From positions 1 through 64,000 of the forward strand of contig CALBRH010000001.1 of assembly GCA_937899865.1 (NCBI GenBank): a stretch of DNA of 64,000 nucleotides. The letters are read 5' to 3'. Below are positions 42,113 to 54,810 of the stretch, piece by piece. Positions within the stretch are counted from its first letter, which is position 1. Every line of letters begins with the position of its first letter. The stretch is from an uncultured euryarchaeote (GTDB taxonomy: Archaea; Thermoplasmatota; Poseidoniia; Poseidoniales; Poseidoniaceae). The notes under the pieces were generated by a model. The model was not told where the DNA came from, made no database searches, and saw only the letters and a list, made by a program, of their open reading frames with translations. Position numbers and translations under genes: made by a program.

Positions 42113-42549
42113 TGAAGCATAGTCAACAAGTTGGCGATGATAGAGGACAAATGCTGCTTGCAACAGGTGTAGTTCTATTGCTTTCATTATTGTCTATGGC
42201 AGTATTTAGTGTCAAAGTGGCAGGTTTAACTTCTGCCCATGAACCAAATGCAGATTCTGTAATTGAAACAACAAAGGAAGTTGTTGACATATTACCTTCA
42301 CTGGCTGAAAATCGTACAGAGATATGGATTTCAAGTGGCATGGAACGGATTGACGCAGCAGAATTGGCTATGTCAAGTATTCATGATGATTTATTACATC
42401 ATGGGGAAATTAGAGGAGTTGAAGTAAAAATGCAGGAAATCATAGTTTCGGTAATTGATGGAACAACGATGGAAATCTCACTTGACTTAGGAATCACAGA
42501 CGATTCTTCAACTTTACAAAGTCAAGTTACTTTCACTATCAATAATTAA
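42112..42549 (+). CDS. Pilin-like protein with class III signal peptide
   Basis: MKHSQQVGDDRG/QMLLATGVVLLLSLLSMAVF; TAATG-coupled to the previous gene. Confidence 0.75.
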   Translation: MKHSQQVGDDRGQMLLATGVVLLLSLLSMAVFSVKVAGLTSAHEPNADSVIETTKEVVDILPSLAENRTEIWISSGMERIDAAELAMSSIHDDLLHHGEIRGVEVKMQEIIVSVIDGTTMEISLDLGITDDSSTLQSQVTFTINN

Positions 42550-43229
42550 CTACGACTTTGATTCCAAGCCACATCTAAATGATGTTCAATTTTCTCTAAA
42601 TCACTAGAAACTCGAGAAATATCAACTACGGGCCAAGATGAAATCTTTGATCTTTCAATTAAACCATCTTGTATTCTTCTTATGCGTTCGAAGTTGGCAA
42701 TGTAACGATCGTGCCTCCTAAATGAATGGGCATCTCGAGATTTTATCATTGATTTATGCTTCTCTTCATCACTAACGGCCATAATCACACCAACTGCAAT
42801 ACCCCCAGAATCAATCCAACTACGAATTAAACGATCACTTGGGATAATGTGAACTCCCTCTAATAACAAGTCAATACCTTCTCTCATGGCTCGATTTATT
42901 GTCGCCTCTATGCCTTTTTCCACAGCTTGACAAGTATCAATCCAGTCTAGTATCGCATCATTCGAATCACCAATTGAAAAAGACGATCTATGTAGAGCGG
43001 GATCGGTTTGAAGTTCATCTGTTGAGCGTAGAATCTCTCTAATTGCATCCGTTGAAATCAACCGAGCAAAATTGCTTTTTGCAGCAATTTTCATTGATAC
43101 AGTTGACTTTCCTGTGCCCGTTGCTCCAGCAATAATTAGCAATCTCGGAGGTCTGTTGGCAATAGTCTTAGCTGTTGTATCAGCAAGACCAATTGTTCGA
43201 GCCATGGTGCATGTATGGTGAACTGTCAA
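42546..43229 (-). CDS. 2-phosphoglycerate kinase-like P-loop protein; start may be ATG 43205
   Basis: GATGTGKSTV, ISTDAIREILR, LLEGVHI.P, IRRIQD.L. Confidence 0.78.
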   Translation of the reverse strand: MTVHHTCTMARTIGLADTTAKTIANRPPRLLIIAGATGTGKSTVSMKIAAKSNFARLISTDAIREILRSTDELQTDPALHRSSFSIGDSNDAILDWIDTCQAVEKGIEATINRAMREGIDLLLEGVHIIPSDRLIRSWIDSGGIAVGVIMAVSDEEKHKSMIKSRDAHSFRRHDRYIANFERIRRIQDGLIERSKISSWPVVDISRVSSDLEKIEHHLDVAWNQSRS

Positions 43230-43322: not shown

Positions 43323-44759
43323 ATGAGCGCAGAAAAAATGTATATTGCGGGAGATTGGGTTGATTCAGATAATGGAGATGTTAGTAATGCAATTAATCCT
43401 GCAACAGGAAAATCAATTTCAACCGTTCCAAAAGCAACATTGAATGATGTTGACCGCTGTGTGGAGGCGGCAAATTCTGCGTTACAAAGTTCTGAATGGA
43501 AAAATATGGATCCTGCCCAAAGAGGACGTATTTTGAATAAAATGGCTGCAGTAACTTATGGTGCTGCTAAGGAATTAGCAAAGATAGAATCGGAAAATAA
43601 TGGTAAAACCTTCCGAGAAGCACTTTCTGAGATTCGCTATGGTGCATGGACTTTGGAGTACTTTGCCGGATTAGCTGATAAGATCGAGGGCAGTACTATA
43701 CCAGTCCCAGGTAATAGATTGAATTACACATTAAGACAACCTATTGGAGTTACGGCACACATTGTTCCATGGAATTTCCCACTACAATTAGCGTTACGTT
43801 CAATTGCACCTGCGCTTGCTGCAGGTTGTACAGTTATTGCAAAACCGGCATCATGGACACCGCTTTCTCTTCTAGCATGGATGAAAAAGATTGACGAAGC
43901 AGAAGTTGGACTACCATCAGGGGTATTGCAAGTCATCACTGGTTCAGGCGGATTGGTTGGTGACGCACTTGCTGGGCACAAAGGAGTCGATGGAATTGTG
44001 CTAACTGGAGGAGTGCCAACTGGTAAAACTGTGATGGCAAAAGCGAGCGAGAATCTAACGCCAGTCACTCTTGAACTAGGCGGTAAAGGTGCAAATATTG
44101 TGTTTCCAGATGCTAATCTGAAGTATGCTGCTAAAGCAATTTGTTTTGGAATATTTATGAATGCAGGACAGATGTGTTGGGCCGGTTCAAGATTGCTTGT
44201 TCATGAAGATATTCATGATGAATTAGTTGAAGCAGTAGTTGCTGAAGTCGGTAAATGGAAAGTTGGTCCGGGCATGGCAGAAGGAGTTAGAATCGGTAGC
44301 CTCGTCCATGAATCACATCGTTCTGAAGTATTAGAAAAACTTGCCAACGGAATCTCTCATGGTGGCGAAATTGTATGTGGTGGTAACGCAGTAAGTGGAG
44401 ATGGAGCTTTCATGGAAGCAACAGTAGTTACTGGAGTAGATGTAGAAAATCCATTATTTTATGATGAGTTATTTGGACCTGTTTTGTCAGTGACCAAATT
44501 TTCAACTGATGAAGAGGCTTTGTCTTTAGCCAATCATTCCGATTTCGGATTATTGAACGGAGTATGGACAAATGATCTTAGTAGGGCTCACAATTTAGCA
44601 CGTGATCTTGAATCCGGTATGGTTTCGATAAATGAATATCCAATTACTTTCCCACAAACCGCATTTACTGGCTGGAAACAATCGGGAATTGGTATTGAGC
44701 AAAGCAAGGACGCACTTCGCTTCTATACTAAAGTAAAGAACGTAAATGTCAAACTTTGA
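43323..44759 (+). CDS. NAD(P)-dependent aldehyde dehydrogenase
   Basis: PWNFP, KP, LELGGK, GQMCWAGS (catalytic Cys), ELFGPV. Confidence 0.95.
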   Translation: MSAEKMYIAGDWVDSDNGDVSNAINPATGKSISTVPKATLNDVDRCVEAANSALQSSEWKNMDPAQRGRILNKMAAVTYGAAKELAKIESENNGKTFREALSEIRYGAWTLEYFAGLADKIEGSTIPVPGNRLNYTLRQPIGVTAHIVPWNFPLQLALRSIAPALAAGCTVIAKPASWTPLSLLAWMKKIDEAEVGLPSGVLQVITGSGGLVGDALAGHKGVDGIVLTGGVPTGKTVMAKASENLTPVTLELGGKGANIVFPDANLKYAAKAICFGIFMNAGQMCWAGSRLLVHEDIHDELVEAVVAEVGKWKVGPGMAEGVRIGSLVHESHRSEVLEKLANGISHGGEIVCGGNAVSGDGAFMEATVVTGVDVENPLFYDELFGPVLSVTKFSTDEEALSLANHSDFGLLNGVWTNDLSRAHNLARDLESGMVSINEYPITFPQTAFTGWKQSGIGIEQSKDALRFYTKVKNVNVKL

Positions 44760-44768
44760 GGCCTATAT

Positions 44769-45551
44769 ATGCCAGTTGAAACTAGTAACTTAGGTGACGG
44801 TGTTGCATTGGTGACAATGGCAGGTAAATCTGCCACTCAATCCTTTTCAATGGAATTTTTACCACAAATCGCTGAAGCGATAGATTCGGCTTTGTCCGAT
44901 AAATCAATCAAGGCAATTGTCATTACAGGCGAGGGTAAATTCTTCTCAGCAGGTGCTGATATCAATGCTTTTGCTAAGTCAATTGAAAATAATGATGCTC
45001 CAAAATTGATTCGCGATTTAACAGGAATATTACATCCATTAATCGTTAGAATAAGGCAATCACCAACCATTTGCGTTGCAGCAATAAATGGTGCTTGTGC
45101 AGGTGGCGGGCTGGGACTCGCTCTAGCATGTGATGTTAGAATCGCCACCTCTGGTGCAAAAATAGCAGCCTCTTATTCCGGCATGGGCTTATCTCCAGAT
45201 GGTGGGACTACATGGTTGCTACCGAGACTGGTAGGAACTCAGAATAGCCGCAAATTTTTCTTTGAAAACAGTATTTGGAATGCTCAACAATCACTTGATT
45301 ATGGTGCAATTGATGAATTGGTTGAATCTTCAGAATTATTGTCACGGGCAACTGAAGTTGCAAAACTTTGGAGTTCTTGGGGCCAACACACTAAAGAAGC
45401 TACTAAACATCTGCTCGATGTACAAACTCACCATGATTTTGAAACACATCTAAAGCATGAGAGAACTCTAATTGAAGCAGCAGGAACAACTGATGCTTTC
45501 AAAGAAGGAGTTGCAGCATTTTTGGAAAAGCGTAAGCCCAATTTTGATTAG
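44769..45551 (+). CDS. Crotonase-family isomerase, PaaG-type
   Basis: FFSAGADI. Both usual catalytic Glu are absent (GGGLGLA; SYSGMG) and the Asp in GLSPDGG is kept, as in PaaG. Confidence 0.78.
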   Translation: MPVETSNLGDGVALVTMAGKSATQSFSMEFLPQIAEAIDSALSDKSIKAIVITGEGKFFSAGADINAFAKSIENNDAPKLIRDLTGILHPLIVRIRQSPTICVAAINGACAGGGLGLALACDVRIATSGAKIAASYSGMGLSPDGGTTWLLPRLVGTQNSRKFFFENSIWNAQQSLDYGAIDELVESSELLSRATEVAKLWSSWGQHTKEATKHLLDVQTHHDFETHLKHERTLIEAAGTTDAFKEGVAAFLEKRKPNFD

Positions 45552-46438
45552 AACTCTGGCATTTCAGTTTCTTCTGCTGTGCCATTTGACCAATCATAAA
45601 TGCCCATTCCAGTTTTTTTGCCCAATCGATTTTCACTGACTAATTTCTCAAGTAGTGGATGAGGTGCGTATGAATCATCATCAAACGATTCTTGTAGATT
45701 TTTTAATATGTCTCTTCTAACATCAAGACCAACAAGGTCTGTAAGTTCTAATGGACCCATCGGGTGCTTGTAACCTAGTACCATTGCGGTGTCAATATCC
45801 TTGGCACTAGCAACTCCATCGGCTAGCATTTTAATTGCTTCATTTCCAAGAACAACTCCTAACCTAGATGTTGCAAAACCAGGAACATCATTAACCAATA
45901 TTGTAGTTTTATTTATTGCATCACCAAACTCTTTAGCAACTTCAATCGTTTCTTTAGAACATTGATCATGTTTTACTAATTCAAGTAATTTCATTATTGG
46001 TACAGGGTTGAAAAAATGCATCCCAATGACTTTCTCAGGACGTCCTGATGCTGCAGCAATATCAGCAATAGATAGAGAGGAAGTGTTTGTTCCCAAGATA
46101 CATTCTTCCTTTGTTTCAATTCCAAGTACGTGGAATATCCTAGCCTTTATTTGTAAATTTTCGGGGACGGCTTCAATTACTAGATCAACATCTTTTACCG
46201 CAGCAGGTAAATCTTGATACGCGTGAAGATTAGTTGCCCACTTCTTTTTCTGTTCAAGCGTAGTTTTACCTCGAGCTATCCCCTTTTCCCAAAATGCATC
46301 AATCGCTTTCATACCTTTGTCTAAGCCATCAGGAAATGCATCATACAAATTGGTTTTCCATCCTGCTTGAGCACAAACTTGAGCAATTCCTGCTCCCATA
46401 GTTCCAGCGCCAATTATTGCAACTTTGGTAATGCCCAT
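45548..46438 (-). CDS. 3-hydroxyacyl-CoA dehydrogenase (PaaH/Hbd-like)
   Basis: GAGTMGAGIA, EAVPE, NTSSL, MHFFNP, GPLELTDLVGLD. Confidence 0.93.
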   Translation of the reverse strand: MGITKVAIIGAGTMGAGIAQVCAQAGWKTNLYDAFPDGLDKGMKAIDAFWEKGIARGKTTLEQKKKWATNLHAYQDLPAAVKDVDLVIEAVPENLQIKARIFHVLGIETKEECILGTNTSSLSIADIAAASGRPEKVIGMHFFNPVPIMKLLELVKHDQCSKETIEVAKEFGDAINKTTILVNDVPGFATSRLGVVLGNEAIKMLADGVASAKDIDTAMVLGYKHPMGPLELTDLVGLDVRRDILKNLQESFDDDSYAPHPLLEKLVSENRLGKKTGMGIYDWSNGTAEETEMPEF

Positions 46439-46439
46439 A

Positions 46440-47384
46440 TTACATGCCAATCGGTGATGCTTCATCATGGTTGCTTGTCAGAGAATTATTTCGCTGGGCA
46501 ATTATAACTCCTCCAGTAATTAGTATGAATGCGAAAAATAGGGATATACCGAGTTTCTCTTGCAATAATAAAAATCCACCAATAATACCAAACGGTGGTA
46601 CAAGGTAAACATATAGTGCACTCATAGAAGCACCGATTTTCACAATACCATCGGCAAACCAAACATATGATATTACAGTTGAAAATAGAGCTAAGAAGAT
46701 TAATCCGACCCATCCATTAAAACTGGGCATAATTATTCCTTTAGTTGCCGATTCAACAGCGACCATAGGTGTTAAAATTATCAGACCGGCTACAGAAGAC
46801 CAAACCGTCAATTCAAGAGGATTAAGTGGTTTTTGCGCTGCTTTAGCTGGAGACGTCATTGCCTTTTTCATCAGTATAGTATTACATGCCCAAGATAATG
46901 CAGCCCCTGCAATCAAAATATTTCCTAGAATTCTATCAGATAATGGTATGTCAACATTTGGCGAATAATAGAATAGAATTGCTACCCCGCTAACACCCAT
47001 TATCAAACCAATAACTAAGTTTAGATGCATTTTTTCGCCAAGAAAAATAACTGCTAAAATCGTAGTAAATAGTGGATTAAATGTAATCATTAAAGACGCA
47101 TCACCGGCAGCAGTAAATTGCATTCCATACATGAAAAATGCTTGATAAACAACGGTTGAAAAGAAACCAATGAGAAAAATTCTTCCCCATTCTGCTCGGT
47201 TTGGAAACATCCATTGCCCAGTCAGTCTTAAGAAAATTAGAAAACTTACAGTAGCAATTACATATCGTAGCCATGATGCGGTGAATGGTAGAATATCATT
47301 TGCTACCACTCTTCCTGCAGGCCAACCAAAGCCCCAAATTACTGCTACCAAAAACAACTTAAAATGAATCAAAAAATTATTCAT
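46440..47384 (-). CDS. DMT/EamA family transporter
   Basis: Ten TM segments in two EamA repeats (IWGFGWPA...; Y.VPPFG). Confidence 0.9.
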   Translation of the reverse strand: MNNFLIHFKLFLVAVIWGFGWPAGRVVANDILPFTASWLRYVIATVSFLIFLRLTGQWMFPNRAEWGRIFLIGFFSTVVYQAFFMYGMQFTAAGDASLMITFNPLFTTILAVIFLGEKMHLNLVIGLIMGVSGVAILFYYSPNVDIPLSDRILGNILIAGAALSWACNTILMKKAMTSPAKAAQKPLNPLELTVWSSVAGLIILTPMVAVESATKGIIMPSFNGWVGLIFLALFSTVISYVWFADGIVKIGASMSALYVYLVPPFGIIGGFLLLQEKLGISLFFAFILITGGVIIAQRNNSLTSNHDEASPIGM

Positions 47385-47917
47385 TCAAATCGCTCCAAAC
47401 CTAGTTGGAGCATTCTTGATCTAGGGAGTCCAATTTCTGGAAGACCTTTAGCAGGCGCATATATCTTCAAACCTTCAATTCTTGAAACATACAGGCCATA
47501 ACTTGCCATATCATCCAGTTTGTAAGGTGTTTCAAGCCCCATTTCGGTTAGTGCATCACAGGCTTTCTGACTGTAAATAGGGTATAAATTAGTAGAGAAA
47601 TGCATCCATTCAGAGATTCTCTGAGTATCAATTCCATCAATAGTCAAAAGATGTTGAAGTAGGGCGACGTCTGGATAAGAAACCGTTCGAATAATCATTT
47701 CAATTTCATTAGTGACTTCTTCTGGGAAAACGAAAGGTTGTCTTTGAGACCAATTTTCAGCGACTTTTATGTGCTCCATCGACGCTTTATCTTGAATAGC
47801 AAATATTGCTTTAGAATATTCTTCGTCATCAATACTGTCAGCAACAAGAGAAGGTAGTTTAGAATAGAAGTTTTCACATCTATCGACATCTACTCCGTAG
47901 AGGGAAACAGGGATCAT
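47381..47917 (-). CDS. Hypothetical protein, possibly a degenerate HhH/OGG-fold
   Basis: LLTIDGIDTQRISEWMHF...YPIYS; its stop overlaps the EamA start; SD GGTGGAG upstream. Confidence 0.6.
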   Translation of the reverse strand: MIPVSLYGVDVDRCENFYSKLPSLVADSIDDEEYSKAIFAIQDKASMEHIKVAENWSQRQPFVFPEEVTNEIEMIIRTVSYPDVALLQHLLTIDGIDTQRISEWMHFSTNLYPIYSQKACDALTEMGLETPYKLDDMASYGLYVSRIEGLKIYAPAKGLPEIGLPRSRMLQLGLERFE

Positions 47918-47933
47918 ATTGACTCCACCTTAA

Positions 47934-49094
47934 TTATGCAGATGCGCCAATGCCGGATTCGATTTGTCTGGTAGACATAGGTTTGTTAGCAATCCATTCT
48001 TGTTTGAATAATTCTTTCAAATCAATTTCATCTTGTGGTATTGGCAATACTGTGGTTAGATATTCTGCATAGTCTTCGTCTGTGCCTTCGAATTTAGTAC
48101 CGTCGACATAGTATTTTTCACCCTTTGTAGCACCGATATCTCGATTGAAGTTTTCATGTGGCACGTACAACTGAGGTGATCCTTCAGGTAAGTATCCGCA
48201 GAGTTTCTTTACTTCACCTACTATTTCATCGTGGTAGTGGCCTCTTGATTCTTCATTCAAAATTTCCTTATCAACTTCAATACCAGCATCCAGTTTCTTG
48301 CGTTCATCCCAGCGTCCTTTAATGCCCCAAACATATGCCCAATGAGCAGAAGATGAAGCATCTACGCCAAATAGATCGTGAGCCGTTGATACCCACTTGT
48401 TGATATATCTCTGTAGCATATCTAGAGGTATTACTCCAGCTTTGATAATCCTCCTGAGTCCATTTGAACCAGTTCCCAAGTGGAATGATTCTTCCTTAAG
48501 CATTGGCCCCATAGAAGCAGCAAGTGGCTTGAAAGCAGAGGTTGAAAGCATACCTAATTGGAACTTCCCGTCTCTATCTACAAACATAGTATAGCAAAAG
48601 AAGTCAAGCCAGTGTGGCATTGGGCGATTAAATGCTCCAAGTAATCTGTCGCCATCTTGAGCGTTTCGTTCAAGCAATTTTTGCGCCTCTCTTCTACCTT
48701 GTTGCCCAAAATAAGTCATAAGTAAGTAAGCCATTTGCCATCCATGACGTTGTTCTTCAGCCATAATTCTAGCTGCAGCATAGCGATCATAATCAGTTGG
48801 AGCAGATGCTAACAAGTGTCTTTGTTGTTCTACAGATGCGAATTCAGTGTCACCCTGAACAGTAATCATGGTGATTAGAGCATCACGCATACTTTGATGA
48901 GGAACTTGTAAAGCCCTTTCCCACTTTGCTCTTCCCTGATAATCACCAAATTCAATAACATCTCCGGCTCTTTCCCAGTCAAATAATACTGAAAGCTCAA
49001 AGTCTCCTAACCAAGAAGGGTCAAATCCTACTCTCCCTTGCCAGTCTTCAAAGTTCGAAATCCACTCTTCCCAAGTATTCGGTAAGTTGTCCAT
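47934..49094 (-). CDS. BoxB-like di-iron aryl-CoA epoxidase (PaaA/PaaC/BoxB ferritin-like superfamily)
   Basis: QGDTEFASVEQQRHL, EEQRH.W.M.YLL..YFG..GR.EA..LL, LGAFN..., W..FF..T.FVDRDGKFQL, EESFH closely follow BoxB, including the Asp ligand. Confidence 0.85.
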   Translation of the reverse strand: MDNLPNTWEEWISNFEDWQGRVGFDPSWLGDFELSVLFDWERAGDVIEFGDYQGRAKWERALQVPHQSMRDALITMITVQGDTEFASVEQQRHLLASAPTDYDRYAAARIMAEEQRHGWQMAYLLMTYFGQQGRREAQKLLERNAQDGDRLLGAFNRPMPHWLDFFCYTMFVDRDGKFQLGMLSTSAFKPLAASMGPMLKEESFHLGTGSNGLRRIIKAGVIPLDMLQRYINKWVSTAHDLFGVDASSSAHWAYVWGIKGRWDERKKLDAGIEVDKEILNEESRGHYHDEIVGEVKKLCGYLPEGSPQLYVPHENFNRDIGATKGEKYYVDGTKFEGTDEDYAEYLTTVLPIPQDEIDLKELFKQEWIANKPMSTRQIESGIGASA

Positions 49095-49130
49095 GATTAT
49101 CCGAGGCTGGGCTTATCCTTATTGTCTTTG

Positions 49131-49142
49131 CGAACATGTTCG
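49131..49142. promoter_or_regulatory. Perfect 12-bp palindrome, candidate operator upstream of the boxB-like operon
   Basis: CGAACATGTTCG lies 37-48 nt upstream of ATG 49094, in the 50-nt gap after the HTH regulator. Confidence 0.5.
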
Positions 49143-49144
49143 TA

Positions 49145-49759
49145 TTAGGATAAAATTTCATCATAATACTTGTCAATTACTTTGCTTTCTATTGAATGTA
49201 GCATAACAGACAGCGTTGATTTAGTAATTCCTAATTCAGTTGATAAATCTGTTAAAGTAACTTCTCTTGGCGCAGTCCAGTAACCTCTGCGGAACGCCAA
49301 TTCAAAGACTTCCCGTTGTCTCGCTGTCAAAAGTTTCTCTTCGCTTGAACGAGTAGATTTGAGTTTCATCTGAAGATTTTCTAATTCGATTTCATTTACC
49401 AATTGCTTAGCTTGTTCAGACGAACATTGAATCGTCCAGTCTGCCCACCCGTCTATGACATCAAAAGGAGTTCTCGGAACTACACCTACGGTCCTCAAAG
49501 GTCTGATGAAACCACCTCCTCCGCTAGCGATTGTTACACTTGCTTTGTCGTCACCAAGCAAATTAACAGTCTCGACACCACTAAGGTTTCCTAAATCTGA
49601 AAGTAACTCTTGTTCCGCAGCAATTTGTGCAGTTCCTCTGCCCTTTCCAAGTGGCATAGTTTCGATTATCTGCAAAACTAAGTTGGGGTGATTTCTTGTT
49701 ACTTCTCCAGCCCAATGGCCGTTAGGTAGACGAACTTCAATTCTTACTATTTGGGACAT
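49145..49759 (-). CDS. Bat-like HTH_10 transcriptional regulator
   Basis: C-terminal LTARQREVFELAFRRGYWTAPREVTLTDLSTELGITKSTLS..LH..E.K, the typical HTH_10 pattern. Confidence 0.9.
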   Translation of the reverse strand: MSQIVRIEVRLPNGHWAGEVTRNHPNLVLQIIETMPLGKGRGTAQIAAEQELLSDLGNLSGVETVNLLGDDKASVTIASGGGGFIRPLRTVGVVPRTPFDVIDGWADWTIQCSSEQAKQLVNEIELENLQMKLKSTRSSEEKLLTARQREVFELAFRRGYWTAPREVTLTDLSTELGITKSTLSVMLHSIESKVIDKYYDEILS

Positions 49760-49763
49760 GTAA

Positions 49764-50720
49764 TCACGAACTGTGTATACGATCATGCCTTGTTAATTGT
49801 TTACTTTCAACATCGATCATTTCTGCAAAAGTTGCTATTGTTCCATCGTCTTTTAACTGTACACCTGGTAAATAACCATCACATACCCCGGATGCAACAA
49901 AAATGGCATCATCCGATTGACACAAATCTTTAGCATCCCACAATCTTGTCAAATCATCATCAATCATGTTCTTAGCGCGTGCTTCTTCTTGGTCAGAACG
50001 GAATACCAATCTGCCTTCAAATACTCCTCCAATACCTCGAATTGCAGTTGCAGTAATTACGCCTTCAGGTGCAGCACCGATTCCTAGTAACATGTCATGT
50101 TCGCCTTCAGGTCTTGCAGCCCACAGTGCAGCAGATATATCGCCATCACCAAGAAGATGTAATTGAGCACCCATACTATTTACTTCTTTGAACAAATCAT
50201 GGTGTCTCGGTCTATCAAGTGCTATTATTCGGACCTCTTCAACGGGTTTGTCAAGCACTGAAGCAACTTGTTCAATATTGTATGATACTCCAGCATCTAG
50301 GCTAATATGTCCTTCCATTTCAGGTCCTGCAGCAATTTTGTCCATGTAACAATCAGGAGCATGCAATAGTGTTCCTCTAGGTGCAGCAGCAAGAACCGCA
50401 ATCGAATTTGGTAAGTTATCAGCACAATTATTTGTACATTCCAATGGGTCGACAGCAATATCTATTGCAGCAACATTAGGGTTGCCTATTTCACAACCTA
50501 ATTGCTCACCAATATACAACATTGGGGCTTCATCTCTCTCGCCTTCACCAATTGCAACTCGACCATCAAATGGAACGCTGTCAAAGGTCATTCGCATAGC
50601 CTCCACAGCAGCAGCATCAGCAGCCATCTTGTCGCCTTTACCACGCCACTTTGCACTAGCGATAGCAGCCAAATCAACCGCATCAAGGAAGTGATTTGCT
50701 AATTGCGAAACCTTGCCCAT
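49764..50720 (-). CDS. glpX: Class II fructose-1,6-bisphosphatase
   Basis: ADAAAVEAMR, IGEGERDEAPMLYIGE, DIAVDPLE, YMDKI, LDRPRH, GDGDI, GIGAAPEGV. Confidence 0.95.
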   Translation of the reverse strand: MGKVSQLANHFLDAVDLAAIASAKWRGKGDKMAADAAAVEAMRMTFDSVPFDGRVAIGEGERDEAPMLYIGEQLGCEIGNPNVAAIDIAVDPLECTNNCADNLPNSIAVLAAAPRGTLLHAPDCYMDKIAAGPEMEGHISLDAGVSYNIEQVASVLDKPVEEVRIIALDRPRHHDLFKEVNSMGAQLHLLGDGDISAALWAARPEGEHDMLLGIGAAPEGVITATAIRGIGGVFEGRLVFRSDQEEARAKNMIDDDLTRLWDAKDLCQSDDAIFVASGVCDGYLPGVQLKDDGTIATFAEMIDVESKQLTRHDRIHSS

Positions 50721-50768
50721 GAAACAAGTGGATAGATGCTAATCAATGAACAATGCGGTTTTGATTAG

Positions 50769-51218
50769 TTAATCGGATTTATATTTTTCAACGATTCTAA
50801 CATCGCAAATCTCGCTGTTAGGATATTGTCCATCAGCATCTTTTTCATATGACTTGACCATGTCAAGAGCACACAATAATCCAGCACAAACTCCGGTTAT
50901 AGCCTCCATTTCGATGCCTGTTTTGTAGTGGGCTGTAACACTAACAGTACAACGTAATGAATTTTCTAAAAGCTCCCAATTAACCTTACATCCTTCTAAT
51001 GGGATTGGATGACAATGAGGAATAATTCTCGGAGTTTCTTTGACAGCTTGAATAGCTGCGATAGTTGAGGCCTCGATCACATCACCTTTTTTCACTTGAT
51101 TAGAAGAGATTGCTTCTAACGATTTTTGAGATAATTTTAGTATTCCTGTGGCGACTGCACTTCGCACCACAATCTCTTTTTGAGTAATATCAACCACACC
51201 TTCAATTTCTTTTTTCAT
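50769..51218 (-). CDS. moaC: Cyclic pyranopterin monophosphate synthase
   Basis: VDIT.K, KKGDV, IIPHCHP, TGIEMEA, DMVK. Confidence 0.93.
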   Translation of the reverse strand: MKKEIEGVVDITQKEIVVRSAVATGILKLSQKSLEAISSNQVKKGDVIEASTIAAIQAVKETPRIIPHCHPIPLEGCKVNWELLENSLRCTVSVTAHYKTGIEMEAITGVCAGLLCALDMVKSYEKDADGQYPNSEICDVRIVEKYKSD

Positions 51219-51222
51219 AATA

Positions 51223-51669
51223 TCAACCTAATCCTGCTTTCCACATCTCGCCCGTTTCAGAAACTTCCTTTTTCCAAATCGGGGCCTGTTTCTTTAATTC
51301 ATCAATCAACCACTCACATGCAAGAAATGCTTCCTTGCGATGAGGGCTTGCAACATGGATAGAAACAATATTTTCCCCAGGCTCAACACTTCCTGTACGA
51401 TGCGACATTGCAATTTTTTTCACACTAAATTTGTCGATTGCTTCAGTGGCTAAACCATGTAAAACATCACCTAATTTATCTTGCCATGCATCGAATTCTA
51501 ATCGATATATTTGTACGCCATTGTCAATTCCTCTAGTTATCCCAAGAAATGAAACAATCGCTCCGCAACCGTCTAAATCCAATGATTCAAGGAGCGACTG
51601 GTGATCTAAATTTATTGGAGACTCCCTAATGATTATGTCTCCGTCCATGCCTATGCGAAGCAAACGCAT
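51223..51669 (-). CDS. moaE: Molybdopterin synthase catalytic subunit; start may be ATG 51648
   Basis: GAIVSFLGITR, HRTG, ASPHRKEAF.AC..LIDELK..APIWKKE. Confidence 0.92.
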   Translation of the reverse strand: MRLLRIGMDGDIIIRESPINLDHQSLLESLDLDGCGAIVSFLGITRGIDNGVQIYRLEFDAWQDKLGDVLHGLATEAIDKFSVKKIAMSHRTGSVEPGENIVSIHVASPHRKEAFLACEWLIDELKKQAPIWKKEVSETGEMWKAGLG

Positions 51670-51700
51670 AATTCAAACCTCACGCCTCGTTGCAGTATAC

Positions 51701-52954
51701 ATGGCGGAGGCTGGTCCAATCAAAATCATGGGGGCAGGCCTGTCTGGTCTTGCTGCTGCGACTATATTGGCTAAAGGTGGTAGAGAAGTCCATGTTCATG
51801 ATATCAGAGATGATTCTGGAGCAAGATTTGATGGTGATTTCCAAGCCTTAGAAAATTGGAGTATGGATACAGACTTTTTTGACCAAATGAAGAGTTGGGG
51901 TTTTGACACAAGTGAATTTAAAGCAACTGAATTTAAGGTTGTAGATTTAATCCATCCCGATGACAAAATAACTCAAGCCAAGAGTCCAAAGATTGCTTAT
52001 CGAATTGTCGAGCGAGGTACTTCAGACCACACCATAGATCAAGGAATTAAGCGTCAAGCATTAGCCGCTGGAGTTAAAATTCACTACAAATCAAAGGTTA
52101 AGGAGGAAGACTGTCAGATAATTGCCTGTGGTCCAAAGGGTACATCAGCGGTTGCTTATGGTGAAATTTTTCACACCGAACATCCAAATCATATCGCATT
52201 CCAGTTGAATGACAAACTCGCTCCAGGCGCATACTCTTACTTGATAATCATCGATGGTGTTGGATTAATCTGTACTTGCCTTTGGCGTAAACAGAAGAAA
52301 ACTGACAGATTTCTCAATGAAACAATTGCTTGGTATGACAAACACTATCCTACACTAAACCGAAAACCAATCAAACGAGTTGGCGGCAAAGGCGATTTTA
52401 CAATCAACAAAAATTACTTTCAAGATGGCCGGTATTATGTCGGTGAATCTGGAGGGCTACAAGATTTCATGTGGGGTTTCGGAATGAGAATGGCAGTTTG
52501 GTCTGGTGTTTTAGCAGCTAAAGATATTCTTGGAGAAATAAATTATGAAACTGAGGTAAGAAAGCAATTATTACCTTATGTAAAGACAAGTGTAGCTAAT
52601 CGTTGGTTGATGAATCGTGTTGGAGATAAGTCATTTAAGATAATGTGTAATAGGTGGATGAAAGATCAAAAGAAGCGAAAAGATGGTCTTGTTTGGATTG
52701 GGAAATTATTCAGGCCAACTTTTTTGAAAGGCTTGATTTATCGGTTAGTCAATCCATTTATGCTGCGAAAAGATCCCAAATCAATGGGTAGAGGAGTTCG
52801 CAGAATGCCATTTAGAAAGGCTCTGAAAAGAGACGATTGGGAGCCCTCTAGTGAAGCGATGGCAGTGAAGGAACAATGGAATTTGATAAGGAAAGGTGGA
52901 GGAAAAACCTCCTTCGCAGAAGACTCTGACCAGATTTCTATTCCAAAAAGTTGA
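51701..52954 (+). CDS. FAD-dependent oxidoreductase, geranylgeranyl-reductase-like family
   Basis: GAGLSGL.AA Rossmann motif, APGAYSY, VGESGGLQD..WGFGM. Confidence 0.82.
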   Translation: MAEAGPIKIMGAGLSGLAAATILAKGGREVHVHDIRDDSGARFDGDFQALENWSMDTDFFDQMKSWGFDTSEFKATEFKVVDLIHPDDKITQAKSPKIAYRIVERGTSDHTIDQGIKRQALAAGVKIHYKSKVKEEDCQIIACGPKGTSAVAYGEIFHTEHPNHIAFQLNDKLAPGAYSYLIIIDGVGLICTCLWRKQKKTDRFLNETIAWYDKHYPTLNRKPIKRVGGKGDFTINKNYFQDGRYYVGESGGLQDFMWGFGMRMAVWSGVLAAKDILGEINYETEVRKQLLPYVKTSVANRWLMNRVGDKSFKIMCNRWMKDQKKRKDGLVWIGKLFRPTFLKGLIYRLVNPFMLRKDPKSMGRGVRRMPFRKALKRDDWEPSSEAMAVKEQWNLIRKGGGKTSFAEDSDQISIPKS

Positions 52955-52994
52955 ATGCGATTTATTCATAATGCTAGTCCGTCTCGGTTGACAC

Positions 52995-53861
52995 ATGAGC
53001 GACCTGTATGGATTAAAACTCGAGCCTATGCCAAATAAATTGGTAAATTATGGAGTCACTGAAAATGGAATTGCTATGATTGAACTTACCTCAAATTCAG
53101 CTGGTAAACCATTAGATGGCCCTAATGACCGTTCTCCAAATACTTACACGCATGAGATGATGCGTGATATTGATGAAGCAATTGTAAGGGCTCGATTCAA
53201 TGATGATGTAACTTGTATTGTGCTTACTGGTAACGGTGCATCTTTCTTTTCCGCAGGCGCTTCAATTCAAATGTTGAATTCTGTAACTCCTGGATTCAAG
53301 TACAATTTCTGTCTTCACGCTAATGAAACGCTATCAAGATTAGAACAAACATCAAAGTTGGTTGTTTGCGCTATCAATGGTCACGCAGTTGGCGGTGGAC
53401 TAGAAATTGCTATGGCTGCTGATATTAGAATTGCTAGAAAGAATTCTGGAAAGGTTGGACTACCAGAAATCAACCTTGGTGTACTTGCTGGAACAGGTGG
53501 TACAGCGAGACTTACTAGATTGATTGGCAAAGCAAAAGCTCTTGAAATGATGGTTACAGGCGAATTAATGTCTTTTGAAGATGCTCATGCATGCAATCTC
53601 ATCAACCATATTTGGGAAGGTTCTCCTGAAGATTTCAGAAGAGATATTCTTGACTGGTGTTCTCAATTTACTCTACCAAACAAGGCAGTTAAGGCTGTAG
53701 GAAATATCAAGCGTTCCTGTCAAACAGGTCCAGAAATTCCATTTGAGTACCACTTGGCACTTGAGCGTGAGTTACAAGCTGCATTGTTCAACAGTACAGA
53801 TGCTAAAGAGGGCATTGCAGCATATGTTGAAAAGCGTGTTGCTAACTTCACTGGAAACTAA
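52995..53861 (+). CDS. Enoyl-CoA hydratase/isomerase (two-Glu type)
   Basis: NTYTHEMM, FFSAGASI, GGGLEIA, LPEINLGV. Confidence 0.9.
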   Translation: MSDLYGLKLEPMPNKLVNYGVTENGIAMIELTSNSAGKPLDGPNDRSPNTYTHEMMRDIDEAIVRARFNDDVTCIVLTGNGASFFSAGASIQMLNSVTPGFKYNFCLHANETLSRLEQTSKLVVCAINGHAVGGGLEIAMAADIRIARKNSGKVGLPEINLGVLAGTGGTARLTRLIGKAKALEMMVTGELMSFEDAHACNLINHIWEGSPEDFRRDILDWCSQFTLPNKAVKAVGNIKRSCQTGPEIPFEYHLALERELQAALFNSTDAKEGIAAYVEKRVANFTGN

Positions 53862-53877
53862 AACTGAGGTGGACTAG

Positions 53878-54801
53878 GTGGCAAAGTATCAAGTTCCCGC
53901 TGATGTGCCAGATGAGTTGATTGAAACTTTCATACAAAATATGGATGCGGCTACTGCTGGAACTGGAAAGATGAATTTGTTTGCCTGTGATCAAAAGATA
54001 GAACACTTGAATGATGATTTCTACGATGGAGATAATGAAATTCCATTGTCATCAAATGATCCTGCTCATCTTTTTGAAATCGGAAGCCGATGTTACAAAG
54101 AAGGCACTATTGGAGTTCTTGCTGGACAACTTGGTTTAATTTCTCATTATGCCAGAGATTATCCAGATGTCCCATACTTGGTCAAACTTAATTCAAAATC
54201 GCATTTGATAAAAACGTCGCAAAGAGATCCAATCTCCCAGGCATTATGGGATATGGATGATGTTATGTCACTAGTTCATAATGGCATTAATGTTGTTGGA
54301 ATTGGTTATACAATATATGTTGGAAGTGAATATGAACATGAAATGATGTCAGAGGCTGCTCAATTCATCCGTCAAGCACATGAATTAGGTATGGTTTCTG
54401 TAGTTTGGATGTACCCAAGGGGTAAAGCAGTTGCAGATGAAAAAGATCCACAACTTATCTCTGGTGCTGCTGGTGTAGCAGCTTGTATTGGGGCAGATTT
54501 TGCCAAGGTAAATTATCCAACAGAATACCCTGGTATGACTAGAGCAGAATCATTGGCAATCGCTTCACAGGCTGCTGGCCGAACTGGAATAATATGCTCT
54601 GGAGGTGGAACTTTGCCGCCAGAACTATTTTTGCAAAGATTGTGGGAGCAAATGAATATTGGAAATTGTCGTGGTGCGGCTACAGGAAGAAATATCCATC
54701 AAAAGAATACTGAAAGCGCGGTAAAGATGACTGCTGCTTGCCATGCGATAATTTGTGAAGGGGCTTCAGTAGAAGAAGCACTCAACATCTACAATTCGTG
54801 A
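53878..54801 (+). CDS. Class I (DhnA-type) fructose-bisphosphate aldolase
   Basis: FACDQKIEHLNDDF, YLVKLNS, GYTIYVGSE.E, WMYPRG, GADFAKVNYP (Schiff-base Lys), ATGRNIHQ. Confidence 0.9.
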   Translation: MAKYQVPADVPDELIETFIQNMDAATAGTGKMNLFACDQKIEHLNDDFYDGDNEIPLSSNDPAHLFEIGSRCYKEGTIGVLAGQLGLISHYARDYPDVPYLVKLNSKSHLIKTSQRDPISQALWDMDDVMSLVHNGINVVGIGYTIYVGSEYEHEMMSEAAQFIRQAHELGMVSVVWMYPRGKAVADEKDPQLISGAAGVAACIGADFAKVNYPTEYPGMTRAESLAIASQAAGRTGIICSGGGTLPPELFLQRLWEQMNIGNCRGAATGRNIHQKNTESAVKMTAACHAIICEGASVEEALNIYNS

Positions 54802-54810
54802 AGATGAGGT

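What the first reader, a model, noticed from the sequence alone, without database searches (positions are those of the whole stretch)
43323..49759. Archaeal BoxB-like aerobic aryl-CoA epoxidation cluster
Seen: two convergent operons whose stops overlap: ALDH + PaaG-type crotonase (+), and HTH regulator > BoxB-like > hypothetical > EamA > 3-hydroxyacyl-CoA dehydrogenase (-). The di-iron protein has the BoxB ligand pattern, including Asp in VDRDG, but is shorter (386 aa) with a different N-terminus. Known: BoxB epoxidises benzoyl-CoA and needs BoxA (reductase) and BoxC (hydrolase); PaaABCE/G/Z do the same for phenylacetyl-CoA. Inference: a hybrid Box/Paa ring-cleavage route, with unknown substrate, in a planktonic marine archaeon. 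This is the best candidate for an undescribed system in the window.
Basis: partly seen in the sequence, partly recalled or inferred. Interest (0 to 1): 0.82.

Follow-up and report, generated by a model that had tools for sequence, protein, structure and literature searches.

The report
Short BoxB-like oxygenase operon, marine archaea
This Marine Group II archaeon carries a shortened relative of the bacterial benzoyl-CoA ring epoxidase BoxB, always paired with an unknown helical protein and set among fatty-acid-type CoA enzymes; nearly all sampled genomes of this abundant ocean order have it, but BoxB's usual partner enzymes are missing, so its substrate is still unknown.

Summary

The 386-aa protein is the only PaaA/BoxB-family member in the genome. 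It keeps all six BoxB iron ligands. It also keeps the BoxB-type substrate contacts Gln/Thr/Ser, where PaaA has His/Ser/Gly.

It is not a BoxB orthologue:
- It scores 218 bits against a cut-off of 499.
- It lies outside a BoxB clade with 100/100 support.
- Thr210 is replaced by Val or Ile.
- The genome has no BoxA, BoxC, PaaB/C/E or aryl-CoA ligase.

The gene is near-universal in Poseidoniales (148 of 151 genomes) and occurs in several other Thermoplasmatota families. Its obligate neighbour is the 178-aa unknown, which has an HhH-GPD-like fold and was never found without it. A hydratase-type crotonase and a 3-hydroxyacyl-CoA dehydrogenase accompany it widely. The plus-strand crotonase carries the PaaG isomerase signature.

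Best reading: an O2-dependent oxygenase for a benzoyl-CoA-like thioester that feeds Paa/Box-like lower steps. This is untested.

This scan reached much the same verdict on other MGII genomes (e1-4877135, e1-5292041).

The parts
47934..49094 (-). BoxBL: short (386 aa) BoxB-like di-iron oxygenase. It is the only PaaA_PaaC-family gene in the genome.
   Evidence: PF05138 scores 58 bits (cut-off 28.5). TIGR03225 scores 218 bits (cut-off 499) over model positions 58-325. PDB 3PER matches at E 3.6e-52. All six iron ligands and five of seven ring contacts are kept. It is the single family member in the genome and is present in 148 of 151 Poseidoniales genomes.
47381..47917 (-). hyp178: 178-aa obligate partner of BoxBL. 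All-helical, with an HhH-GPD (Ogg2/EndoIII)-like fold and no family assignment.
   Evidence: It starts 16 nt after the BoxBL stop, and its own stop overlaps the EamA start. It is conserved across the order, with 21 invariant columns. The AF2 model has pLDDT 90. VIA-align gives Z 8.0 to 3N0U, and many HhH-GPD glycosylases appear in the top 25. The atlas search gives TM 0.72 to an OGG-type cluster. It is found in 88 of 301 Thermoplasmatota genomes. All 88 also have BoxBL, and at every listed place compared (more than 60) it is the adjacent gene.
46440..47384 (-). EamA/DMT transporter, inserted in the operon only in MGIIa and in family f2.
   Evidence: PF00892 appears twice, E 3e-44. The closest NCBIfam model is the carboxylate/amino acid/amine transporter family, below cut-off. 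It is present in MGIIa/f2 loci and absent from MGIIb loci.
45548..46468 (-). HCDH: 3-hydroxyacyl-CoA dehydrogenase (PaaH/Hbd-like), last gene of the operon.
   Evidence: 3HCDH_N plus 3HCDH domains. It follows BoxBL-hyp178 in 20 of 20 Poseidoniales loci and lies near BoxBL in several other families. It is one of three such genes in the genome.
44769..45551 (+). ECH1: PaaG-type crotonase (isomerase signature), convergent on the operon.
   Evidence: Its best PDB hit is E. coli PaaG 4FZW_C at 1.8e-33. It is the best PaaG match in the genome. Both hydratase Glu residues are replaced and the Asp of 'SPD' is kept, as in PaaG's 'IPD'. The NCBIfam models 'oxepin_alt' (181 bits) and PaaG (156 bits) are both below cut-off.
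43323..44759 (+). Aldehyde dehydrogenase of the general betaine-/phenylacetaldehyde-DH type, upstream of ECH1.
   Evidence: PF00171 scores 529 bits, but no NCBIfam equivalog is reached. In most MGIIb genomes a different ALDH (33-35% identical) holds the equivalent place.
49131..49142 (.). Perfect 12-nt palindrome CGAACATGTTCG, 37-48 nt upstream of the BoxBL ATG. It is a probable operator of the HTH_10 regulator.
   Evidence: It is the only exact copy in the window, against 0.07 expected by chance. It is exact and at the same position in 32 of 35 MGIIa loci, and absent from the MGIIb loci, nearly all of which lack the regulator.
49145..49786 (-). HTH_10 (Bat-type) transcription regulator, directly upstream of BoxBL in MGIIa.
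   Evidence: PF04967 at E 1.8e-15. It is present upstream of BoxBL in MGIIa loci. Among MGIIb loci it appears only in L046.
52995..53861 (+). ECH2: hydratase-type crotonase (PaaF/crotonase-like). It sits directly upstream of BoxBL in MGIIb and other Thermoplasmatota. Here it is displaced 4 kb by an inversion.
   Evidence: It keeps both catalytic Glu residues. Its best PDB hits are generic enoyl-CoA hydratases. It is adjacent to BoxBL in 12 of 13 MGIIb loci and in families f21 and f31. Orthologues occur in 30 of 31 BoxBL-positive genomes outside Poseidoniales.
51629..52954 (+). p441: GGR/PHBH-fold flavoprotein, the constant upstream neighbour of ECH2 in Poseidoniales. It is a neighbour and not shown to be part of the module.
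   Evidence: It has a GxGxxG motif and only weak NAD_binding_8 and GG-reductase hits. The model has pLDDT 77, and Foldseek finds 3OZ2/GGR, KMO and FixC. Orthologues occur only in Poseidoniales, including BoxBL-negative genomes, and none occur in the other BoxBL-bearing families.

Best explanation
The core of this locus is a two-gene module. It consists of a shortened BoxB-like di-iron oxygenase (BoxBL) and a 178-aa helical partner (hyp178), and it is inherited vertically in aerobic marine Thermoplasmatota.

Shown:
- BoxBL has an intact BoxB-type di-iron site.
- BoxBL has a BoxB-type, not PaaA-type, thioester/ring-binding pocket, apart from Thr210 changed to Val or Ile.
- It is co-transcribed or tightly linked with a hydratase-type crotonase (ECH2) and a 3-hydroxyacyl-CoA dehydrogenase.
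- In MGIIa it is also linked with a DMT transporter, a PaaG-type isomerase-like crotonase plus an aldehyde dehydrogenase, and an HTH_10 regulator with a conserved palindromic operator.

Inferred:
- BoxBL uses O2 and two electrons from a non-dedicated donor, most simply a ferredoxin.
- It epoxidises or hydroxylates a benzoyl-CoA-like (aryl or cyclic) acyl-CoA.
- The product is processed by the crotonases and the ALDH. This would be ring isomerisation or opening followed by aldehyde oxidation, as PaaG/PaaZ or BoxC/BoxD do.
- The chain is then shortened by the hydratase, the dehydrogenase and one of the genome's thiolases, as in the lower Paa/Box pathway.
- The thioester would arise without a dedicated aryl-CoA ligase. 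Possible sources are 2-oxoacid:ferredoxin oxidoreductase acting on aromatic 2-oxoacids, or beta-oxidation of phenyl-substituted acids activated by the single FadD-type ligase.
- hyp178 is a stoichiometric accessory or effector subunit of unknown role.

The substrate, the electron donor and the ring-opening step are all untested.
For: - Closest relative: BoxB 3PER at E 3.6e-52, about 47% identity over the core.
- Active site: all six ligands are kept, plus Q116, T119, S123, F193 and F203. E. coli PaaA has H, S and G at the first three, Phe at F193 and Ile at F203.
- It is the only family member in the genome.
- Order-wide synteny of BoxBL-hyp178-HCDH with ECH2, ECH1 and an ALDH.
- In MGIIb, p441-ECH2-BoxBL-hyp178-HCDH lie on one strand with gaps of about 60 nt or less, measured in locus L039.
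- Linkage to ECH2 or HCDH persists in other families, and even for 260-290-aa mini forms.
- hyp178 was never found without BoxBL, and at every listed place compared it is the adjacent gene.
- ECH2 orthologues are present in 30 of 31 BoxBL-positive genomes outside Poseidoniales.
- ECH1 has the PaaG catalytic signature, and its best PDB hit is PaaG.
- PaaJ-like thiolases lie elsewhere in the genome.
- A 2-oxoacid:ferredoxin oxidoreductase-like pair is present.
- A conserved operator upstream of BoxBL indicates regulated expression in MGIIa.
- In-situ expression: 'boxB' is listed among highly expressed MGII genes (PMC5069720).
- BoxB is monomeric and needs only catalytic amounts of a transiently bound reductase (PMC4498308). 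A non-dedicated donor is therefore plausible.
Against: - It is outside the BoxB clade and far below the equivalog cut-off.
- Thr210, whose backbone sets regio- and stereo-selectivity in BoxB, is replaced in every short form.
- No BoxA, BoxC, PaaZ-type hydrolase, PaaB/C/E, benzoate- or phenylacetate-CoA ligase, indolepyruvate oxidoreductase or ADP-forming acyl-CoA synthetase was found.
- The only AMP-forming ligase is of the long-chain fatty-acid type.
- ECH2 and HCDH look like ordinary beta-oxidation enzymes. Their co-distribution with BoxBL could simply track an aerobic heterotrophic lifestyle.
- A near-universal, highly expressed gene in 1.3-2.2-Mb genomes is unusual for peripheral aromatic catabolism.
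- The ALDH is not orthologous between MGIIa and most MGIIb.
- An HhH-GPD-like partner has no counterpart in the Box or Paa systems.
Confidence: 0.5

Rival explanations
1. BoxBL oxygenates or desaturates a non-aromatic acyl-CoA as an accessory step of lipid beta-oxidation. Candidates are unsaturated, methyl-branched/isoprenoid or alicyclic chains. On this reading ECH1 is a delta3,delta2-enoyl-CoA isomerase, ECH2 the hydratase and HCDH the dehydrogenase of ordinary fatty-acid degradation. The ALDH would oxidise fatty or isoprenoid aldehydes.
For: - ECH2 and HCDH score best against generic crotonase and 3-hydroxybutyryl-CoA dehydrogenase models.
- The PaaG signature is also the signature of enoyl-CoA isomerases.
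- The only acyl-CoA ligase is of the FadD11/long-chain type.
- Four acyl-CoA dehydrogenases and four thiolases are present.
- Lipid degradation is the accepted core metabolism of MGII, and a 3-hydroxyacyl-CoA dehydrogenase is among its most transcribed genes.
- A GGR-like flavoprotein heads the MGIIb operon.
- BoxBL is a near-universal gene of the order, as beta-oxidation is.
Against: - The residues that pack against the aromatic ring in BoxB are kept. These are Q116, T119, S123, F193 and F203, with position 206 Phe or Tyr.
- No known ferritin-like acyl-CoA enzyme of this branch acts on aliphatic chains. This rests on my own knowledge.
- The GGR-like gene does not co-distribute with BoxBL outside the order.
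- Ordinary beta-oxidation needs no oxygenase.
Confidence: 0.25
2. BoxBL and hyp178 form a unit that acts on something other than a CoA thioester, for example a nucleotide, a cofactor or a nucleic-acid base. This is suggested by the glycosylase-like fold of the partner. On this reading the CoA-enzyme neighbours are only conserved bystanders.
For: - The only strictly co-inherited, always adjacent gene is hyp178.
- The hyp178 model resembles Ogg2, MagIII and EndoIII, and the queuine-salvage enzyme DUF2419.
- Bacterial short forms stand alone, without CoA enzymes nearby.
- The gene is near-universal in the order and highly expressed, like a housekeeping function.
Against: - Gln116, which hydrogen-bonds the benzoyl-CoA substrate in BoxB, and the rest of the pocket are conserved.
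- Linkage to ECH2 and HCDH recurs in distant families, and for the mini forms that lack hyp178.
- The position of the glycosylase catalytic Asp is not conserved between MGIIa and MGIIb hyp178. This is my reading of alignment A1 against motifs recalled from memory.
- The fold match is only middling for a helical protein (Z 8).
Confidence: 0.12
3. It is a bona fide benzoyl-CoA 2,3-epoxidase of a canonical Box pathway whose BoxA and BoxC genes were merely missed.
For: Public annotations call it benzoyl-CoA 2,3-dioxygenase/epoxidase component B. The genome is only 91% complete.
Against: - TIGR03225 scores 218 bits against a cut-off of 499.
- It lies outside the BoxB clade, which has 100/100 support.
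- The best BoxA-like hit is a CysJ-type flavoprotein at 75-88 bits against a cut-off of 459. The best BoxC-like hit is ECH2 at 78 bits against a cut-off of 712.
- The neighbourhood is the same, without BoxA or BoxC, in 20 loci of other genomes, several on contigs longer than 300 kb.
Confidence: 0.04

Closest known systems
BoxB, oxygenase component of benzoyl-CoA 2,3-epoxidase (Azoarcus/Aromatoleum evansii; PDB 3PER, 3PM5; NCBIfam TIGR03225)
   Same: Both have a ferritin-like di-iron core. About 47% of residues are identical over roughly 190 positions. All six ligands are kept, including the unusual Asp. The Gln/Thr/Ser/Phe/Phe residues that hold benzoyl-CoA are kept. Both probably need no PaaC-like structural subunit.
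   Different: It is about 90 residues shorter, through loss of the N-terminus, two or three internal segments and the tail. Thr210 is Val or Ile. It lies outside the BoxB clade. It has no BoxA reductase and no BoxC dihydrolase. It has an obligate 178-aa partner that BoxB lacks. It is archaeal and near-universal in an order rather than part of a catabolic island.
PaaABC(D)E phenylacetyl-CoA 1,2-epoxidase with PaaG, PaaF, PaaH and PaaZ (E. coli)
   Same: BoxBL belongs to the same Pfam family (PF05138). The neighbours correspond in type to PaaG (ECH1, same catalytic signature), PaaF (ECH2), PaaH (HCDH) and the ALDH half of PaaZ.
   Different: The PaaA equivalog scores only 40 bits against a cut-off of 280. 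The pocket residues are of BoxB type, not PaaA type. There is no PaaB, PaaC, PaaE, PaaK, PaaX or MaoC-type oxepin-CoA hydrolase. All crotonase and dehydrogenase matches are below their equivalog cut-offs.
Uncharacterised short PaaA/BoxB-like proteins (bacterial metagenomic forms of 377-383 aa such as P0124, P0126 and P0131; PDB 4MUD, 235 aa, 'ring oxidation complex/phenylacetic acid degradation related protein')
   Same: They share the shortened architecture and ligand set, and a non-Thr residue at BoxB position 210 in the forms aligned (4MUD was not aligned). They group with the MGII proteins outside BoxB in the tree.
   Different: The three bacterial forms examined stand alone, next to a TetR regulator, MgtE or methyltransferase genes, with no hyp178 and no CoA enzymes. 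None has a known function.
HhH-GPD DNA glycosylases (Ogg2 TM1821 3N0U, MagIII 1PU6, EndoIII), compared with the partner hyp178 only
   Same: The overall all-helical two-lobed fold is shared (VIA-align Z 8.0, 156 residues aligned; many family members appear among the top hits).
   Different: Sequence identity is 7-12%. No profile match to any PDB chain or Pfam family was found. The Gly-rich hairpin and a conserved catalytic Asp are not evident. There is no Fe-S cysteine motif.

Membership tests
BoxB (benzoyl-CoA 2,3-epoxidase subunit B, TIGR03225 equivalog) | Full-length match above the curated cut-off of 499.1 bits | tested here: not met
   It scores 218.2 bits, covering model positions 58-325 of 471. 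True BoxB representatives score 672-908 bits.
BoxB (benzoyl-CoA 2,3-epoxidase subunit B, TIGR03225 equivalog) | Di-iron ligands Glu120, Glu150, His153, Asp211, Glu240, His243 | tested here: met
   E84, E114, H117, D173, E202 and H205 align to them in all MGII and Thermoplasmatota sequences. Ligand numbering is from PMC5489048.
BoxB (benzoyl-CoA 2,3-epoxidase subunit B, TIGR03225 equivalog) | Residues that orient benzoyl-CoA: Gln116, Thr119, Ser123, Phe193, Phe203, Phe206, Thr210 | tested here: inconclusive
   Five are identical. Phe206 is Tyr here and Phe in MGIIb. Thr210 is Val here and Ile in MGIIb, and is non-Thr in every short form.
BoxB (benzoyl-CoA 2,3-epoxidase subunit B, TIGR03225 equivalog) | Placement inside the BoxB clade | tested here: not met
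   In the careful ML tree the BoxB clade has 100/100 support and a stem of 1.44. The MGII clade (100/99) lies outside it, sister to another Thermoplasmatota family.
BoxB (benzoyl-CoA 2,3-epoxidase subunit B, TIGR03225 equivalog) | Works with the BoxA reductase and the BoxC dihydrolase | tested here: not met
   The best BoxA hit scores 74.7 bits against a cut-off of 459 and is a CysJ-like protein. The best BoxC hit scores 78 bits against a cut-off of 712 and is ECH2. Neither enzyme appears in the 36 related loci inspected. The genome is 91% complete.
BoxB (benzoyl-CoA 2,3-epoxidase subunit B, TIGR03225 equivalog) | O2- and NADPH-dependent 2,3-epoxidation of benzoyl-CoA | not testable with these tools
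   This needs an enzyme assay.
PaaA_PaaC superfamily (Pfam PF05138) | Domain match above the gathering score | tested here: met
   It scores 58.2 bits against 28.5.
PaaA (phenylacetyl-CoA 1,2-epoxidase subunit A, TIGR02156) | Equivalog score, and presence of PaaB, PaaC and PaaE partners | tested here: not met
   It scores 40.5 bits against a cut-off of 280. E. coli PaaB, PaaC, PaaE and PaaK find nothing in the genome. The pocket residues differ from PaaA.
PaaG-type isomerase (TIGR02280), tested for ECH1 | Equivalog score | tested here: not met
   It scores 155.9 bits against a cut-off of 345. 'oxepin_alt' NF046063 scores 181 bits against 300.
PaaG-type isomerase (TIGR02280), tested for ECH1 | Isomerase active site: both hydratase Glu residues absent, single acidic residue in the 'PD' loop | tested here: met
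   In alignment A5, ECH1 has Gly and Ser where PaaF and ECH2 have the two Glu residues. It keeps the Asp of 'SPD', aligned to PaaG's 'IPD'. That this Asp is the catalytic residue rests on my own knowledge.
HhH-GPD superfamily, tested for hyp178 | Fold similarity, plus the helix-hairpin-helix motif with a Gly/Pro-rich loop and a catalytic Asp | tested here: inconclusive
   The fold gives VIA-align Z 8.0 to 3N0U, and many family members are among the top hits. Foldseek finds no match at E<=0.001. There is no profile match in the PDB. The motif is not evident in alignment A1.

The most novel reading that the evidence does not exclude
BoxBL plus its HhH-GPD-fold partner is a new, reductase-less type of aryl-CoA epoxidase. 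It would be fed by ferredoxin rather than by a BoxA- or PaaE-type reductase. Together with single-domain crotonases and an ALDH in place of BoxC or PaaZ, it would form the core aerobic route by which the most abundant planktonic archaea break aromatic rings. The rings would come from aromatic amino acids or algal phenolics. That would make Poseidoniales and related marine Thermoplasmatota a major, overlooked sink for aromatic dissolved organic matter.
Probability: 0.3. Interest if true: 0.8.

Novelty: new variant of a known kind. Interest (0 to 1): 0.6.

Why it matters
Marine Group II archaea are among the most abundant microbes of the surface ocean and have never been cultured. What they consume is inferred almost entirely from their genomes.

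This oxygenase is present in nearly every genome sampled. It is listed among highly expressed MGII genes in situ (PMC5069720). It has the active site of a ring-dearomatising enzyme so far characterised only in bacteria.

If it does attack aromatic CoA esters, it adds aromatic carbon to the diet of these archaea. It would also define a minimal epoxidase system with no dedicated reductase, no BoxC, and a new partner protein. If instead it acts on lipids, it would be a new oxygen-dependent step in archaeal beta-oxidation.

Either way, the BoxBL-hyp178 pair is a well-defined target that can be expressed in the laboratory.

Tried and rejected
- Complex prediction for BoxBL + hyp178 gave no verdict (score 0.00). 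It counts neither for nor against binding.
- p441 as the missing reductase or partner is rejected as an obligate partner. Its orthologues are confined to Poseidoniales, occur in BoxBL-negative genomes, are absent from other BoxBL-bearing families, and are unlinked in some MGIIb genomes. Its fold is GGR/PHBH-like, not BoxA- or PaaE-like.
- The FNR-like ORF just beyond the window (C1:64435-65700) as BoxA: it is a CysJ-type sulfite-reductase flavoprotein and is 16 kb away.
- ECH2 as a BoxC homologue: it scores only 78 bits to the BoxC N-domain but 173 bits to ordinary hydratase models. No specific relation was found.
- hyp178 found nothing in Pfam, NCBIfam, PHROGs or a PDB profile search. Foldseek against the PDB gave nothing at E<=0.001.
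- Bacterial short forms P0124, P0126 and P0131 have uninformative contexts with no CoA enzymes.
- The 208-aa ORF after BoxBL in L075 is not hyp178-like.
- A greedy ORF census of neighbours in high-GC relatives produced spurious antisense ORFs and was abandoned.
- Searches for other routes found none: homogentisate dioxygenase, ADP-forming acyl-CoA synthetase and indolepyruvate oxidoreductase were all absent.
- Literature searches for PF05138, 'BoxB-like', or MGII together with phenylacetate or aromatic compounds found no study of this protein.
- A structure model of BoxBL itself was not made. Both fold jobs went to hyp178 and p441.

Full report
**What is there**

| Gene | Coordinates | Strand |
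|---|---|---|
| Aldehyde dehydrogenase | 43323-44759 | + |
| Crotonase ECH1 | 44769-45551 | + |
| 3-hydroxyacyl-CoA dehydrogenase (HCDH) | 45548-46468 | - |
| EamA/DMT transporter | 46440-47384 | - |
| 178-aa protein, no family match (hyp178) | 47381-47917 | - |
| 386-aa PaaA_PaaC-family protein (BoxBL) | 47934-49094 | - |
| HTH_10 regulator | 49145-49786 | - |

The two convergent units end in overlapping stop codons at 45548-45551. The window is the first 64 kb of contig 1 of a 2.01-Mb, 91%-complete genome. Its close relatives in public data are labelled Poseidoniaceae, that is Marine Group IIa.

**The oxygenase**

BoxBL's best characterised relative is BoxB of Azoarcus evansii (PDB 3PER, E 3.6e-52).

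- All six BoxB iron ligands are kept. BoxB Glu120, Glu150, His153, Asp211, Glu240 and His243 (PMC5489048) align to E84, E114, H117, D173, E202 and H205.
- Gln116, Thr119, Ser123, Phe193 and Phe203, which orient benzoyl-CoA in BoxB, are also kept.
- E. coli PaaA has His, Ser and Gly at the first three of these positions. The pocket is therefore of BoxB type, not PaaA type.
- Two differences are systematic. Phe206 is Tyr here and Phe in MGIIb.
- Thr210, whose backbone sets selectivity in BoxB, is Val or Ile. It is non-Thr in every short form examined.

BoxBL is not a BoxB orthologue.

- It scores 218 bits on TIGR03225, against a cut-off of 499 and against 672-908 bits for true BoxB.
- It lacks the BoxB N-terminus, two or three internal segments and the C-terminal tail.
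- In a careful ML tree the BoxB clade has 100/100 support on a long stem. The MGII sequences (100/99) sit outside it, sister to those of another Thermoplasmatota family and among other short forms (quick tree).

**What is missing**

The genome has a single PaaA_PaaC-family gene. None of the following was found:

- BoxA or BoxC above cut-off
- PaaE
- a match to E. coli PaaB, PaaC, PaaE, PaaK or PaaX
- an indolepyruvate oxidoreductase
- an ADP-forming acyl-CoA synthetase
- a homogentisate dioxygenase

The one AMP-forming ligase is of the FadD11/long-chain type. Four acyl-CoA dehydrogenases, three 3-hydroxyacyl-CoA dehydrogenases and four thiolases are present.

**Distribution and synteny**

BoxBL is found in 148 of 151 sampled Poseidoniales genomes. 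In nearly all of them it is a single copy, and the few extra matches are fragments at contig ends. It is 60-65% identical between the two main families.

In 20 loci spread over the order, BoxBL-hyp178-HCDH is invariant.

- The EamA transporter is inserted only in MGIIa and in family f2.
- The HTH_10 gene precedes BoxBL in MGIIa and in only one MGIIb locus.
- In MGIIb the operon reads p441-ECH2-BoxBL-hyp178-HCDH on one strand, with short gaps.
- In this window the same p441-ECH2 pair (51629-53861) lies 4 kb away, beyond an inverted glpX-MoaC-MoaE block.
- ECH1 and an ALDH are always nearby. The ALDH of most MGIIb genomes is a different ALDH, only 33-35% identical.

Across 301 Thermoplasmatota genomes BoxBL occurs in 100. 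These include several families outside the order, at 47-62% identity. It was not found in the sampled methanogen-like, small-genome families and other families tallied. In the families outside the order it still sits next to hyp178, ECH2 or HCDH. Even 260-290-aa mini forms sit next to ECH2 or HCDH.

**Which neighbours travel with it**

| Gene | Distribution in the same 301 genomes |
|---|---|
| hyp178 | 88 genomes, all of which have BoxBL; none of the 201 BoxBL-negative genomes has it |
| ECH2 orthologues | 30 of the 31 BoxBL-positive genomes outside Poseidoniales, plus three genomes of one family without BoxBL |
| p441 orthologues | Poseidoniales only, including two BoxBL-negative genomes |

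At every listed place I compared (more than 60), hyp178 is the gene next to BoxBL. p441 is a lineage-specific neighbour, not a partner. Relatives are not independent, so these counts describe the pattern and are not statistics. The ECH2 pattern could also reflect a shared aerobic heterotrophic lifestyle.

**The neighbours themselves**

- **ECH1.** It lacks both hydratase glutamates and keeps the Asp of the 'PD' loop exactly as E. coli PaaG does. ECH2 keeps both glutamates, like PaaF. ECH1's best PDB hit is PaaG, and it is the genome's best PaaG match. Its scores stay below the PaaG and 'alternative oxepin-CoA hydrolase' cut-offs.
- **hyp178.** It is a real, conserved gene. Its model is confident (pLDDT 90). 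It resembles HhH-GPD glycosylases at a middling level. VIA-align gives Z 8.0 to 3N0U, many family members are in the top 25, and the atlas search gives TM 0.72. The glycosylase motif is not evident.
- **p441.** It is a GGR/PHBH-fold flavoprotein.
- **Operator.** The 12-nt palindrome CGAACATGTTCG, 37-48 nt upstream of the BoxBL start, is exact and in register in 32 of 35 MGIIa loci. It is absent from the MGIIb loci, nearly all of which lack the regulator. That pattern marks it as the regulator's operator.

**Interpretation**

The active site argues for a benzoyl-CoA-like substrate. The gene company matches the Paa/Box lower pathway type for type: PaaG-type isomerase, PaaF-type hydratase, PaaH-type dehydrogenase, an ALDH, and thiolases elsewhere (PMC4498308).

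BoxB is monomeric and needs only traces of a transiently bound reductase. A general ferredoxin could therefore serve as donor. A CoA ester could arise from 2-oxoacid oxidation without a dedicated ligase. These points are inference.

Several facts keep a lipid-type substrate a serious rival (about 0.25):

- The flanking enzymes look like ordinary beta-oxidation enzymes.
- The ligase is of the fatty-acid type.
- The gene is near-universal in the order.
- No ring-opening enzyme is identified.

A substrate that is not a CoA ester remains a lesser rival (about 0.12).

**Prior knowledge**

Databases already name the protein boxB or PaaI. One Red Sea metatranscriptome paper lists MGII 'boxB' among highly expressed genes. 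Another reports a 3-hydroxyacyl-CoA dehydrogenase among the six most transcribed non-ribosomal genes of three MGII genomes. I could not tell which of the paralogues that is.

The main MGII genomics paper that I could read does not mention this protein.

Earlier follow-ups in this scan reached the same general verdict on other MGII genomes. This report adds:

- the MGIIb operon form with ECH2
- the phylum-wide co-distribution tests
- the BoxB-versus-PaaA pocket comparison
- the PaaG signature of ECH1
- the fold of hyp178
- the conserved operator

**Verdict**

This is a real, conserved, expressed system. It is a new variant of the BoxB/PaaA kind rather than a member of either family, and its function is untested.

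Noticed in passing
window 49131-49142; loci L009-L038 and L051-L055: The perfect palindrome CGAACATGTTCG upstream of BoxBL is exact and at the same position in 32 of 35 MGIIa loci, across several genera. It is absent from the MGIIb loci, nearly all of which lack the HTH_10 gene. It is a likely operator.
   Followed up: partly
window 51629-52954 (+): p441 is a highly conserved flavoprotein (61% mean column identity) with a GGR/PHBH-like fold. Its orthologues are confined to Poseidoniales. It scores far below the geranylgeranyl-reductase cut-off, and its function is unknown.
   Followed up: partly
window 49764-51669 compared with L039-L058: The glpX-MoaC-MoaE block lies between BoxBL and p441-ECH2 in MGIIa but on the far side of p441 in MGIIb. 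An inversion split the ancestral ECH2-BoxBL operon in MGIIa, and the HTH_10 gene sits at the new junction.
   Followed up: partly
window 53878-55863 (+): Directly after ECH2 come a DhnA-type class I aldolase (above its NCBIfam cut-off) and a Rieske oxygenase. The Rieske protein's best, sub-threshold, match is the glycine-betaine monooxygenase GbcA. Any link to the BoxBL genes was not tested.
   Followed up: partly
L077:4377-5204 (-) and L078:9016-9786 (+): Mini BoxB-like proteins of about 260-290 aa, 35-41% identical to the core of BoxBL with all ligands kept, occur in two other Thermoplasmatota families. They lie directly next to an ECH2-type crotonase or an HCDH, without hyp178.
   Followed up: partly
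L075:8056-14158 (+): In one Thermoplasmatota genome the cluster reads ECH2-BoxBL-(unknown)-crotonase-HCDH-crotonase-Amidohydro_2. The last family includes ring decarboxylases and lactonases of aromatic catabolism.
   Followed up: no
L039:5112-6530 (-) and equivalent places in MGIIb loci: The ALDH beside ECH1 in most MGIIb genomes is only 33-35% identical to the MGIIa one. This looks like a non-orthologous replacement at a conserved position. One MGIIb genus (L056) keeps the MGIIa type at 64% identity.
   Followed up: partly
L001:889-2154 (+) = contig C1:64435-65700, just beyond the window: A 421-aa protein matches only the FAD/NADPH half of the sulfite-reductase flavoprotein CysJ. No flavodoxin domain is evident.
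   Followed up: no
window 42546-43229 (-): A 227-aa P-loop kinase related to 2-phosphoglycerate kinase, below cut-off, is a conserved neighbour of the ALDH across the order.
   Followed up: no
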